From Mizuhopecten yessoensis (lineage: Eukaryota), in contig NW_018404269.1 of the NCBI RefSeq assembly GCF_002113885.1, forward strand, positions 806,028 to 870,027: a stretch of DNA of 64,000 nucleotides, in the 5' to 3' direction. Shown piece after piece: positions 93-3,874 of the stretch. Position 1 is the first letter of the stretch. Every line of letters begins with the position of its first letter. Made by a program: the position numbers and the translations under genes. A model generated the notes under the pieces. The model worked only from the letters and a program-made list of their open reading frames with translations. It ran no database searches and had not been told where the DNA came from.

Positions 93-194
93 CTGTGTCA
101 CATAAAACATGTCATATTAATTATTTGCTCTGGTACAACAAGCTAAATGTCAAGCTACATGTAATATTGAATAGTCCTTGAAATACTATACTAT

Positions 195-515
195 TGTAAC
201 AGGAGCAAAAAAATGCATGCAACACTGGGGTTCAAACCTGGGACCCTCCAAACTCTTAGACAGACGCTCTAACCAATTGAGCTACCTGGTCGCCGATGAT
301 CGACCCAGTCTAGTTCCACTACATTCCCAGGTCCAGATATCTCCTTGTCAAGCATTAAACTTGCACTTGAAACAAGGGTTGGTGATCACAGGCACCAAAT
401 GTACAGTGTAACAGGAGTGGGAAAATGCATGGCAACACCCTCCAAACTCTAGATGAAGGCTCTACCAATTGAGCTACCTGGTCGCTGACAATCGAGCCAG
501 TCTAGTTCTGCTACA
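195..515 (-). mobile_element. Miniature non-autonomous LTR element with tRNA-derived LTRs (TRIM/Ajax-like)
   Basis: Two direct repeats (195-323 and 407-515) read TGTAG...TGTTACA on the - strand. Each carries a tRNA-like A box (GGTAGCTCAATTGG(T)AGAGC); the 195-323 copy also has a B box (GGTTTGAACCCC). The 83-bp internal region has a PBS-like TGGTGCC(T)GTGA and a purine-rich end. Flanks CTAT/CTAA form a near-TSD. Confidence 0.7.
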
Positions 516-850
516 CTAATAAAGACTTTTTTTGAGATCCTTTTACATTATAAAGAGAGTTGTAAGTTACTGTTACTGTACGTGCTAGCTGCAATAGTAG
601 AGTGGGTTCTGACGACGAGCCATTTCATATTGCGTCAGAGCCGGTATTAATATTAGTTCTAGTTATGTGCCACTTTATGATCTTAAGCGAACATTGGTTT
701 CTGGGTTTTTTATTGGTTTATAATAACTAGGATTAAATGGAACTTTGACTTTGCCAAAAAGGAAAAAGGAAAACTTAGTATAGAGCTCAATCGAAGGTAA
801 CTACCTCGAAAAATGATGAAACATGAACTCAAATTTTTAAATTGAATTTG

Positions 851-1857
851 ATCTGTATCTGTATGGTATACGGCGCAGATGATCCATATAAACTGGCGAG
901 ATGCACCGGGGGGGGGGGGGGGNNNNNNNNNNNNNNNNNNNNNNNAGCTGTCTTGAAGCTCTCTACTGATGACGCGCACACAACCTCGTCACTTAGACTA
1001 TTCCAGTCTATTGCAGTTTTGATAAAGTATGAGTTTTTAAATGTTGGCGTTTTGTGGTTTGGAATGTCTAGTCCACGGCTGTCATTGGTTGCTCGCGTTT
1101 CTACAATATTGTCCGAAATGAAGTCCTGACATTTCCGCGGTTTAATTTGTCATCCTTTCCGAATGGGCTTAAATATGCTGTAAGGATCTATAGATGGAAC
1201 TAAGCCCTCAACCACTTTGTAACAAAAAGTTAATCTGGAGTTTCGTCTCCTCTTCTGAAATAGGGGAAGGTCCAAGTATTTTAACATTTTTGTCACACAC
1301 CCTTCCTCCCTTGTTTTATAATCGCCTGTGATGAACCTCGCACCTCTCCTTTGTTTTTTTTCAATCCTGTTGATATCCTTCTCTAAGTACAGATCCCACA
1401 CGATGGATCCATATTCCAGTACCGATCTTACCATGGCGATATATGCCACTTTCCTGCAAGATTTCGGACAGTGTTGGAGATTCCGTCTGAGGAATCCGAG
1501 TGTAGAGCTAGCCCTTGATGTCGATTTAGAAATTTGAGTAGTCCAACTTAAGTCTTCCGAAATTGTTAAACCAAGGGAGGGATTTTCTTAAACTTGTTGT
1601 AGAATTTGGTCGTCTAAAGTGTAAAATTTGTTGGATTTTTGTTTGGTACTCATGGTATAACAATTCTTGGCGTTGAACCTCATTCCCCACTTTTTAGCCC
1701 ATACCTTGAGATTGTCCAGGTCACGCTGTAGAATTTCATGGTCTTCCGCCGTTTTTATTTCCTGATACAACAAACAGTCATCCGCGAATAAACGAACAAG
1801 CGACAACACTGCGTCTGACAGATCGTTTATGTGACAGAGGAAGAGAAGTGGGCCCAA
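851..1857 (-). mobile_element. 5'-truncated CR1/L2-group LINE (RT C-terminal half, pseudogenised), inside COQ4 intron 1
   Basis: One reading frame: GPLLFLCHINDL...VRLFADDCLLY...WGMRFNAKNC...AYIAMVRSVLEYGSIVWD...FKNSYFIKTAIDWNSL, broken only by in-frame stops at about 1588 and 1150. A short (CAGATA)n tail lies at about 851-865. An N-gap interrupts it at 923-945. Confidence 0.9.
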
Positions 1858-2340
1858 TCGACTTATCGAATTCTGTCTCTTTTTTCAAAAAGAGACAAAC
1901 GAAAAAAGACCTTAATATCTGACTAGCTCTTTTTATTTTTTAATAGGATTGAGATAGATACAGTTTCTCTGCAACATAAAAAATATCTAAAAAAAGGGGA
2001 CACAATTCAGTTTTATTTGGACGACAGTACCGGGCCGTTTTCATGTAAACGGTCAAACCAGTCGGACCACTGTTGTTCGTTTATTAAATAAGGTCGGACC
2101 TAGTAATCTGATACTGCTTTCAGGCGAGCCTTGACGAAGCCTTGCAAGGCCTGCATAAACATTTACAGGTCCGCCAGGATTTATACCCGAAATTGTTACA
2201 TATATAAACGGTCAAACCGGTTGTTCCGCATAAACGAACAGGCCCCAGTAGTCTAATGAAAAAGGTTCAGACATACAGCGGCTAACAAGATTATGAAAAT
2301 AGACAAATAAGTATGTAAACATAACAGAATACCATGTCAC

Positions 2341-2476: not shown

Positions 2477-2560
2477 CTTTGACACTTGGAGTTGTACATG
2501 CGCACAGTAACCGGAAACAGCACGTGTGTGTAAATTGTAAACAGTGGTACACATGTAGTT
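2477..2560. promoter_or_regulatory. Compact bidirectional promoter region between COQ4 and DNLZ
   Basis: 84 bp between divergent ATGs. It contains CATGCGCA (NRF1-like, 2497-2504), CCGGAAAC (ETS/GABP-like, 2511-2518) and a CACGTG E-box (2521-2526). Confidence 0.65.
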
Positions 2561-3054
2561 ATGTCACGATATTTACTCGGGTGTTTACGACACATAAACT
2601 ATTCTAGTGATACACAGTTATGTGTGCGTGCATTAAGAATACACAATCACCGTGTGATATCCAAATCGGTGAAAACATCTTGTGGTTTTGCGAGAGGACA
2701 CAACAAATTGACTGGAAAATTGCATCAGAACACACTCCCGGAAGTGGGACATCTTAACATAAACTCGTGTGCATTTCTGCAAGTTAGGCAGTTGTCGACA
2801 AGCAGCGTATACTGGAAAGATGACAATAACGTTAACGGCCGGCAAGTTGACAACAGTAAAGGCACATCCTCTTTAGGGCAAATACAGGGGAAACTCCACA
2901 TAAAGTATACATGTAAAGTGTGTGGTACACGAATGGCGCACACGTTCTCCAAACAGTCATATGAAAAAGGGGTTGTCATAGTGACATGTTCGGGATGTAA
3001 CAATCACCATCTAATTGCTGACAATCTCGGCTGGTTTGAGGACGTCGGTAAACG
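2561..3054 (+). CDS. DNLZ: DNL-type zinc finger protein (Zim17/Tim15/Hep1, mtHsp70 escort), exon 1
   Basis: Presequence-like N-terminus, then YTCKVCGTR...FSKQSYEKGVVIVTCSGCNNHHLIADNLGWF, the zf-DNL signature with 2x CxxC and DNL. Donor CG|gtcagt at 3055, phase 2. Confidence 0.95.
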
Positions 3055-3874
3055 GTCAGTACCAATGCTCTGTTTCAGTCACTTTCGTGTAGACAATATA
3101 AGTACATTAAAATATCCAGTCATAGGTCTGTGACCAAGGTGTATAAGGTTCTTCTTCTTTAGGTTATCAGTATTTCTTCAATGATCTGAAGATTATTTAC
3201 TGTTTTGCGCAGGTTATATGATATGCATCCATAGTAACTCCTATGCTAATCTATAATAAAACAAATTGCGTTCATAGATCTAGAGCTATAATACGCGATT
3301 AGATCGATGTCGTTTGGAAGCTACTTCGGCTTTGAATAACAGATTCGTAAATATAAGAATCATTATTTTCGAGGCTCATCAAAATTCTATGAGCTAGTAA
3401 ACGACATGGGACTCGTGATATTATGTAGATTTAAAAATGGACTGTGAACTTTTTACATTTGATAATAATCATTAATAAAATTCCCCCTTTTTTTTTTAAA
3501 ACATTTATGCCAGTCCTGTGGGTATGAGCGGGAGTCGGTTATAATTACATACATGTTTTTACAATGGCAATAGGGTTTCGTGGAATATATATGGATACGA
3601 TCGATTTGCATTCAGACCGATGTTAATGTTGAGCTAATGCCGTTTAAATCGAGTTATCTGGCCACCTTATTTGCAGACCTAAATCATTGTCGGACATAAT
3701 TAACGGACAAGACACCATTTCTCAGTGAAATCATGAATTTGGGGGTGGGGGTCACGTCACAATTCTAAGTTCTTTGTGTAACTGCAAATTGTAAGGAGAT
3801 GGGCGTCTACGCAGACATGCCATACCATAAAATATAAAGAGTATAGGTAGGGGAGAAAGAACCGATAATTATCA

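What the first reader, a model, noticed from the sequence alone, without database searches (positions are those of the whole stretch)
195..515. 321-bp LTR retroelement whose LTRs are built from a tRNA gene
Seen: two direct repeats bounded by TG...CA. Each has a Pol III A box, and one has an intact B box; the other has lost about 20 bp spanning the T-arm. The 83-bp interior carries TGGTGCC(T)GTGA near the 5' LTR and a purine-rich end before the 3' LTR. Known: TGGTGCCGTGA is complementary to the 3' end of tRNA-His, and non-autonomous LTR elements with small-RNA-derived LTRs exist (Cassandra and Helenus with 5S rRNA, Ajax with tRNA). Inference: this is a Pol III-driven miniature LTR element that a pipeline would likely mis-call as a SINE dimer or tRNA pseudogene, and it may be a new family.
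Basis: partly seen in the sequence, partly recalled or inferred. Interest (0 to 1): 0.7.

Follow-up and report, generated by a model that had tools for sequence, protein, structure and literature searches.

The report
Scallop mini-retrotransposon with split primer site
This is a decayed copy, lying in an intron, of an abundant small retrotransposon of the known Helenus type, whose tRNA-like end repeats likely serve as its promoter and whose intact relatives carry a second stretch predicted to pair with the primer tRNA, a feature the family's description does not mention.

Summary
The element is real. It lies on the minus strand as LTR (515-407), interior, LTR (323-195), and is one copy of a family with at least 522 LTRs, 4-bp target-site duplications (12 of 26 exact against 0.4 by chance), solo LTRs and tandem arrays. 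It is a Helenus TRIM (Kojima 2024): by eye its LTR is close to scallop Helenus-1_ArIr and -2_PeMa. The 321-bp form is not the family. This copy alone lost 50 bp, including the PPT; intact copies are about 380 bp. It lies in a spliced intron. New here: one LTR goes with three interiors, primed by tRNA-His, tRNA-Arg(ACG) or tRNA-Lys(CTT); the His and Arg forms are absent from Kojima's Data S1. His and Lys interiors carry a second site complementary to their own primer, and His-primed Gypsy-type elements carry one in U5. Against strict function, Arg-primed copies keep the His-like site. Pol III transcription is untested. The scan noted a Helenus copy in another genome (e1-9536358).

The parts
407..515 (-). 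5' LTR (109 bp), TG...CA, tRNA-derived; A box at 465-476; about 20 bp of the T-arm/B box deleted
399..406 (-). 7-8 extra bases resembling a duplicated LTR end, absent from the five siblings aligned
386..397 (-). PBS complementary to the 3' end of the genome's tRNA-His(GTG), with the family's one-base bulge; a small insertion follows it in this copy
341..378 (-). interior hairpin 1 (predicted), looped out between the PBS and the second site
   Evidence: cofold; paired C-G / T-A variants among siblings
326..334 (-). remnant of the second tRNA-His-complementary site (up to 14 nt in intact copies; matches the T-arm 5' strand and variable loop)
324..326 (-). junction of a 50-bp deletion unique to this copy; removes the end of the second site, the pre-PPT hairpin and the PPT
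195..323 (-). 3' LTR (129 bp), TG...CA; A box 273-284, degenerate B box 228-238, T7 run 207-213
191..194 (.). 4-bp target-site duplication, copy beside the 3' LTR (3 of 4 match)
   Evidence: family statistics
516..519 (.). 4-bp target-site duplication, copy beside the 5' LTR
   Evidence: family statistics
93..2340 (-). host intron of 2,248 nt (CT..AC on +, i.e. GT..AG on minus) that contains the element in the same orientation; context, not part of the element
   Evidence: spliced reads in 4 of 4 RNA runs (6, 18, 3, 2 reads)

Best explanation
The stretch is an old, internally deleted, intronic copy of a Helenus-type miniature LTR retrotransposon, whose intact copies are likely transcribed by Pol III from the tRNA-derived LTR and likely copied and inserted by a Ty3/Gypsy helper using a host tRNA primer that is predicted to pair at two separate sites. 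Steps: (1) Pol III would start at the tRNA-like unit of the 5' LTR, leak through its T4-5 run and stop at the same run in the 3' LTR (inferred). (2) tRNA-His anneals to a 13-14 nt bulged PBS (complementarity shown; priming supported by LTRs joined to 16-20 nt tRNA-His copies) and is predicted also to pair by its T-arm with a second site about 45 nt downstream, hairpin 1 being looped out (inferred, about 55%). (3) Plus-strand synthesis would start at the purine tract behind a second hairpin (inferred). (4) Integration leaves a 4-bp TSD (shown). This copy has since lost its PPT and 5' B box, so it likely cannot replicate, and it is spliced out with its intron.
For: Family structure: 16 LTR-interior-LTR, 4 solo, 3 truncated, 1 fragment and 1 partial among 25 held-out loci; arrays of 3-5 LTRs. 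TSD: 4 bp exact in 12 of 26 (control mean 0.38, max 3), 5 bp 0 of 26; held-out 3 of 9 exact, 8 of 9 within one mismatch. tRNA origin: sibling LTR scores 48.4 bits on Rfam tRNA; relaxed A box in 79 of 81 and B box (GTTYRANNC) in 53 of 81 LTRs. Primer: PBS duplex -23.1 kcal/mol with tRNA-His, next best -16.0 of 7 tRNAs. Family LTRs followed by 19 nt (L070) and 16 nt (L202) of tRNA-His copy and then unrelated DNA, about where plus-strand strong stop ends in retroviruses (PMC11251516 passages). Second site: match of 8 nt or more to tRNA-His outside the PBS in 11 of 15 His-type interiors (one of the 15 was mis-sorted) against 3% of shuffles, 0 of 15 to tRNA-Lys; Lys-type interiors 8 of 18 to tRNA-Lys, 0 of 18 to tRNA-His. 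Helper: His-primed LTR elements with gag, protease and integrase domains; L185 has TG..CA ends, a 4-bp TSD and a near-identical PPT and the same anti-T-arm site in U5.
Against: No discrete transcript: four standard RNA-seq runs show reads on both strands and no start or end pile-ups; such libraries would lose a short Pol III RNA, so this is inconclusive. A T run of 4 or more follows the tRNA unit in 74 of 81 LTRs, so read-through must be assumed. No intact autonomous element was found in 43 stretches fetched around His-PBS sites. Second site: whole-duplex energy shows no excess for the His type (-31.6 against -31.1 +/- 4.1 shuffled). Only 6 of 13 held-out His/Arg-type interiors reach 8 nt, one of them at another place. 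Arg-primed copies keep the His-like site (9 of 20 match His, 1 of 20 Arg). Lys-primed long elements have no upstream site of 9 nt or more (0 of 16 clusters).
Confidence: 0.85

Rival explanations
1. It is a Helenus TRIM as above, but the second site is a relic or serves something else, for example pairing with the T-arm of the element's own tRNA-like LTR RNA, or packaging or dimerisation; priming uses the PBS alone.
For: Arg-primed copies retain the His-specific end of the site. The LTR's own T-arm could form about 10 bp with it (by eye). No duplex-energy excess for the His type. Lys-primed long elements lack a long upstream site.
Against: The site gives 14 bp with tRNA-His against about 10 with the LTR. 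Lys-type interiors share the same LTR yet carry Lys-specific sites instead. The motif is visible in all 15 His-type bivalve families of Data S1 while the hairpin between diverges, and 4 His-primed long-element clusters carry 11-14 nt tRNA-His-complementary sites in U5. tRNA-His and tRNA-Arg(ACG) have an identical 17-nt T-arm here, so the core of the site still fits after the switch.
Confidence: 0.4
2. It is a head-to-tail dimer of a tRNA-derived SINE moved by a LINE.
For: tRNA-like unit with A and B boxes and a T run; a LINE-like RT fragment lies in the same intron.
Against: Fixed TG..CA ends, strict 4-bp TSDs, PBS and PPT at the junctions, solo LTRs with TSDs, no tails evident; three interchangeable PBS types.
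Confidence: 0.03
3. It is a pair of real tRNA-Ser genes or simple tRNA pseudogenes.
For: ARAGORN of 81 LTRs tRNA-Ser(AGA).
Against: The window copy is not called. The unit has the short variable loop shown, whereas tRNA-Ser has a long arm (established knowledge). Copies sit inside LTR boundaries with TSDs.
Confidence: 0.02

Closest known systems
Helenus-1_ArIr and Helenus-2_PeMa (scallop Helenus TRIMs; Kojima 2024, PMC10886601, Data S1 and Table S1)
   Same: LTR of 129-130 bp; by eye 48 of the first 52 nt of the window's 3' LTR equal Helenus-2_PeMa-LTR. 4-bp TSD, same PPT type. The Lys-primed 88-bp interior found here reads as their counterpart.
   Different: Both published families are Lys-primed. 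The window's interior is His-primed and about 122 bp when intact, and a third, Arg(ACG)-primed interior shares the LTR. The His-type and Arg-type PBS words had 0 hits in the supplement. Arg is not among the bivalve primers that the paper lists.
His-primed bivalve Helenus interiors (Helenus-2C_CGi, -2_SaGl, -4_PeMa, -2_MiYe, -4_MiYe and others)
   Same: Same layout by eye: PBS, hairpin, anti-T-arm motif, short hairpin, PPT. Bulged His PBS also occurs there (Fig. S2 text).
   Different: Different LTRs and hairpin sequence. The paper aligns only the first 20 or so nt with the tRNA; its main text has 0 hits for 'hairpin', 'bipartite' and 'T-arm'.
Cassandra and Ajax (5S-derived TRIMs, 'TRIMp3')
   Same: Short non-coding LTR elements with a Pol III promoter in the LTR; only Cassandra transcription is validated (PMC10886601).
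   Different: 5S rather than tRNA promoter; Ajax makes 5-bp TSDs and uses tRNA-Leu.
Bipartite PBS of Ty1 and Ty3, and the HIV-1 primer activation signal
   Same: Extra pairing of the primer's T-arm outside the PBS (PMC5371799 passages; PMC11251516 passages).
   Different: There the pairing is shown experimentally and lies upstream of the PBS (HIV-1), close to it (Ty1) or in U3 (Ty3); here it is predicted only and lies downstream of a looped-out hairpin in a non-coding element.
biv-TRIM (PMC6934838)
   Same: Bivalve TRIM with solo repeats and tandem arrays.
   Different: Repeats of 202-218 bp, 77-80 bp interior, no clear PBS (Results part 1); not this family.

Membership tests
Helenus (TRIMp3) | Two LTRs, TG...CA, total under about 1 kb, non-coding | tested here: met
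   321 bp here, about 380 bp intact; TG 21 of 26, CA 22 of 26
Helenus (TRIMp3) | tRNA-derived sequence with A and B boxes inside the LTR | tested here: met
   Rfam tRNA 48.4 bits on a sibling LTR; relaxed A box 79 of 81, B box 53 of 81; degenerate in the window copy
Helenus (TRIMp3) | PBS complementary to a tRNA 3' end just after the 5' LTR | tested here: met
   genome's tRNA-His; 127 exact LTR-PBS junctions, 17 of the 100 listed lying in one array
Helenus (TRIMp3) | PPT before the 3' LTR | tested here: met
   present in siblings; deleted in the window copy itself
Helenus (TRIMp3) | 4-bp TSD in animal families | tested here: met
   12 of 26 exact against 0.38; 5 bp 0 of 26; 3 of 9 exact held-out; window copy 3 of 4
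Helenus (TRIMp3) | Sequence similarity to a described family | tested here: met
   by-eye comparison with Data S1; no computed alignment, and Repbase itself was not searchable
Helenus (TRIMp3) | Transcription by Pol III (also unproven for published Helenus) | tested here: inconclusive
   standard RNA-seq only
Helenus (TRIMp3) | Mobilisation by a Gypsy helper | tested here: inconclusive
   His-primed Gypsy-type elements with matching PPT and TSD; none intact among those fetched; no RT domain or tree examined
Ajax / Cassandra | 5S rRNA-derived sequence in the LTR | tested here: not met
   no 5S match among Rfam hits
tRNA-derived SINE | 5' tRNA head, 3' tail, variable-length TSD | tested here: not met
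Bipartite PBS / PAS systems (Ty1, Ty3, HIV-1) | Second template site that pairs with the primer outside its 3' 18 nt and is needed for initiation | tested here: inconclusive
   complementarity and His/Lys specificity met; no adaptation in the Arg type; function not testable here

The most novel reading that the evidence does not exclude
Helenus TRIMs prime reverse transcription through a split primer-binding site. Having replaced the helper's LTR with a tRNA-derived one, they lost the U5 primer-activation-like site that His-primed Gypsy elements of this genome carry, and hold it instead in the interior, behind a looped-out hairpin. The second site follows the primer (His against Lys, and by eye in oyster, mussel and wasp families) and restricts primer switches to tRNAs with a compatible T-arm, as in the His-to-Arg(ACG) switch between two tRNAs with an identical 17-nt T-arm. 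The 120-nt interior would be a minimal natural model of extended primer-template pairing.
Probability: 0.5. Interest if true: 0.6.

Novelty: new member of a known kind. Interest (0 to 1): 0.38.

Why it matters
The copy itself is ordinary: a broken intronic insertion of a described class. The family adds three modest things. First, His- and Arg(ACG)-primed interiors on an LTR published only with a Lys primer, a clear case of primer switching under one LTR. Second, genomic traces of the primer (LTR plus 16-20 nt of tRNA copy) that support the assumed priming for an element class with no experiments. Third, a candidate second primer-pairing site shared with Gypsy-type elements. If that site works, extended primer pairing known from Ty1, Ty3 and HIV-1 also governs animal TRIMs, could limit which helper and tRNA a TRIM can switch to, and could be tested on a 120-nt non-coding RNA. 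Practically, the LTRs inflate tRNA-Ser(AGA) counts (31 of 81 called).

Tried and rejected
Expression: no listed holder was on record as RNA. Four raw RNA-seq runs laid on sibling L038 at 85% likeness gave reads on both strands, over 90% running on into unlike sequence, with no start or end pile-ups: not informative on Pol III. RNAduplex total energy did not separate the His-type second site from shuffles, though it did for the Lys type (-37.2 against -27.6 +/- 4.4). The anchored site scoring mis-placed the site in several rows; only its tRNA sequences and correctly anchored rows were used, and one search replaced it. The A/B labels mis-typed short or deleted interiors (the window copy among them) and were not used for counts; the LTR-pair divergences by type (A 0.13, n=4; B 0.10, n=8) rest on them and are rough. 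The 59 Lys junctions include some other LTR families. Search for an intact helper: 13 plus 30 stretches of up to 9.9 kb around His-PBS sites gave only broken or partial elements and unrelated genes. Lys-PBS test used 30 of 45 sites and was negative at 9 nt (three clusters reached 8 nt). biv-TRIM rejected. Literature searches found no Helenus follow-up on the primer site; PMC12859917 and PMC13570524 mention Helenus but were seen as listings only. Subscription papers, Repbase and Dfam were not searchable, and the figures of PMC10886601 were not visible, so prior mention cannot be excluded. Published consensus sequences were compared by eye only.

Full report
1. Observation. The window holds two direct repeats at 195-323 and 407-515. 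On the minus strand both read TG...CA and enclose 83 bp; they differ at 14 of 108 aligned positions. Each has an A box. The 5' LTR lacks about 20 bp of the T-arm, and the 3' LTR's B box is degenerate, so Rfam gives only 18.6 bits (cut-off 29) and ARAGORN finds no tRNA in the window. The flanks form a 4-bp duplication matching at 3 of 4 (191-194, 516-519).

2. Family. A genome search gave 2,819 candidates, 40 scored; a 19-mer of the LTR occurs 522 times, control 0. Of 78 de-duplicated clusters, 26 had both outer ends scorable: TG 21, CA 22, exact 4-bp TSD 12 (shuffled pairs mean 0.38, max 3), within one mismatch 19 (mean 2.75), exact 5-bp 0. In 25 held-out loci (30 returned, 5 dropped as already seen or duplicate) there were 16 LTR-interior-LTR, 4 solo LTRs, 3 truncated, 1 fragment and 1 partial; 3 of 9 scorable had exact and 8 of 9 near-exact 4-bp TSDs. 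Arrays of 3-5 LTRs occur. A sibling LTR scores 48.4 bits as tRNA. Among 81 distinct full LTRs a relaxed A box is in 79, a strict one in 53, a B box in 41 (strict) to 53, a T run of 4 or more in 74, and ARAGORN, of which 31 Ser-AGA.

3. This copy is damaged. Against five siblings the interior lacks 50 bp spanning the end of the second site, a small hairpin and the PPT, and has gained 8 and 3 bp near the PBS. The junction is found once, here (control 1). The 321/83-bp sizes are thus private; intact copies are about 128+122+128 bp. RNA reads splice across 91-2340 with CT..AC ends in 4 of 4 runs (6, 18, 3, 2 reads), and depth over 201-600 is 1.2 or less per direction. The copy lies in an intron of a minus-strand gene.

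4. One LTR, three interiors. Type A (about 122 bp) has a bulged PBS for the genome's tRNA-His(GTG) (14 gene-pattern hits, 4 of 4 checked by ARAGORN); 127 exact junctions, 17 of the 100 listed in one array. Type B (88 bp) matches tRNA-Lys(CTT); up to 59 junctions, some from other LTR families. Type C has the type A body with a 14-nt PBS for tRNA-Arg(ACG); 36 junctions, and 20 of 20 inspected carry the family LTR. PBS duplex energies pick the right tRNA of 7 tested: A -23.1 (next -16.0), B -24.1 (next -19.5).

5. Traces of the primer. All 63 sites with a perfect 13-nt His PBS were inspected. Two have the family LTR followed by 19 nt (L070) or 16 nt (L202) of tRNA-His complement, longer than the family's own PBS, and then unrelated DNA. 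Sister Helenus LTRs show the same (L074 18 nt; L182, L190, L193, L195 19 nt; L080, L084, L191 16 nt; L177 20 nt). In L182, L190, L195 and L080 the tRNA copy is fused to the 3' part of the interior, by eye at the second site, with the hairpin lost; these may be one or two amplified events rather than four. In retroviruses plus-strand strong stop ends before m1A58, after 18 nt (PMC11251516, passages). I infer mis-transferred plus-strand products, which supports tRNA-His as the physical primer.

6. Second site. Beyond the PBS, type A interiors match tRNA-His over 8 nt or more in 11 of 15 (up to 14 nt, T-arm 5' strand and variable loop; L074 was mis-sorted into the 15) against 3.3% of shuffles, and tRNA-Lys in 0 of 15. 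Type B matches tRNA-Lys in 8 of 18 (shuffles 1.1%; a 6-nt T-stem site and an 8-nt anticodon-stem site) and tRNA-His in 0 of 18. Longest-helix medians: A-His 11 against 5.5-7 for six other tRNAs; B-Lys 9 against 5-6. Cofolding puts both sites on the tRNA with hairpin 1 looped out; hairpin 1 shows paired C-G and T-A variants, with mixed T-G forms too. By eye in Data S1 of PMC10886601, all 15 His-type bivalve families listed in Fig. S2C show a trace of the motif, 6 with 12 or more exact bases; 14 of 17 bivalve and 6 of 6 wasp Lys(CTT)-type interiors seen show the T-stem word. These families share ancestry and were compared with this genome's tRNAs, so the counts are not independent. Long His-primed elements carry an 11-14 nt tRNA-His-complementary site 46-77 nt upstream of the PBS, in U5: L185/L129 and L135 to the same T-arm segment, L189/L175 and L200/L134 to the tRNA 5' end. 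That is 4 of 17 non-Helenus clusters, against 1 of 17 for the tRNA-Lys control.

Results against: total duplex energy shows no excess for type A; 6 of 13 held-out A/C interiors reach 8 nt, one elsewhere; type C keeps the His-like site (9 of 20 His, 1 of 20 Arg), although the two tRNAs share an identical 17-nt T-arm; Lys-primed long elements show 0 of 16 clusters at 9 nt (30 of 45 sites examined). Copies decay after insertion, so misses are expected, but function is not shown. I put it at about 55%.

7. Helper. His-primed LTR elements carry protease and integrase C-terminal domains (L189), integrase H2C2 and core (L175), and gag, zinc knuckle and protease (L200); L130 has a weak Ty3 capsid hit below cut-off. 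L185 (3.2 kb) has TG..CA ends, an exact 4-bp TSD, a PPT nearly identical to the TRIM's and a hairpin just before it. A Ty3/Gypsy helper is inferred; none of the 43 stretches fetched held an intact one.

8. Transcription. Inferred only. Standard RNA-seq on a sibling shows family reads on both strands without defined ends, as expected from copies inside Pol II transcripts.

9. Comparison. Kojima 2024 (PMC10886601; whole main text read; supplement parts 6, 7, 10, 11 and passages; figures not visible) defines Helenus as TRIMs with tRNA-derived LTRs, 311-1263 bp, 4-bp TSD in animals, probably Gypsy-mobilised, and Ajax as the 5S type. The LTR here closely matches Helenus-1_ArIr and -2_PeMa, both Lys-primed; an LTR motif hits only those two entries, and the His- and Arg-type PBS words have 0 hits. 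Sister LTRs in G000 read like the paper's MiYe families (against 22, 23), so the host is likely a scallop. The main text has no 'hairpin', 'bipartite' or 'T-arm', and Fig. S2 aligns about 20 nt. Precedents for extra primer pairing are Ty1 and Ty3 (PMC5371799, passages) and the HIV-1 PAS. biv-TRIM differs (PMC6934838, outline and Results part 1). Earlier scan notes hold one other bivalve Helenus copy, no look-alike sequence and no matching split-site note.

10. Verdict. A real, dead copy of a Helenus TRIM; a new member of a known kind (confidence 0.85 for class and mechanism). Interest 0.38, carried by the three-primer family and the candidate split primer site (probability 0.5, interest 0.6 if true).

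Noticed in passing
window 1150-1884 (-): Fragment of a non-LTR retrotransposon in the same intron; RVT_1 hit E 2.6e-7 on 1588-1884.
   Followed up: partly
window 2534-3133 (+): Expressed ORF with a zf-DNL domain (E 2.8e-26; reads in 4 of 4 runs), next to the exon of the minus-strand host gene near 2340.
   Followed up: partly
L041-L057 (G000:C588 about 104,900-110,800): Tandem array with a 52-54 bp period built from the LTR end plus PBS of this family, a satellite-like derivative.
   Followed up: no
L143-L151 panel against Fig. S2C of PMC10886601: The genome's tRNA-Lys(TTT) 3' end matches, by eye, about 18 nt of the PBS of Helenus-1_MiYe, which the paper aligns with a gap to tRNA-Lys(CTT); those families are probably Lys(TTT)-primed.
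   Followed up: no
L208, L214, L218, L221: A tRNA-type LTR of another family followed by 17-18 nt of tRNA-Lys(CTT) complement, like the His primer traces.
   Followed up: no
L177 (G000:C5378 about 567,400): A sister Helenus LTR plus 20 nt of tRNA-His copy runs straight into an inverted LTR of this family at the T-loop: a template switch or a chance juxtaposition.
   Followed up: partly
L072, L077, L094, L188, L192, L194, L199: Isolated 19-20 nt tRNA-His 3' complements with no related upstream cluster, perhaps captured tRNA fragments or decayed elements.
   Followed up: no
L006, L100, L104: Family elements whose LTRs are 460-1,000 bp apart but keep matching or near-matching 4-bp flanks, i.e. 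copies with later insertions.
   Followed up: no
type A, B and C interiors; L185 and L129: A short hairpin directly before the PPT in all three interiors and in the L185/L129 long elements, and by eye in many published bivalve Helenus; a candidate packaging or plus-strand signal.
   Followed up: partly
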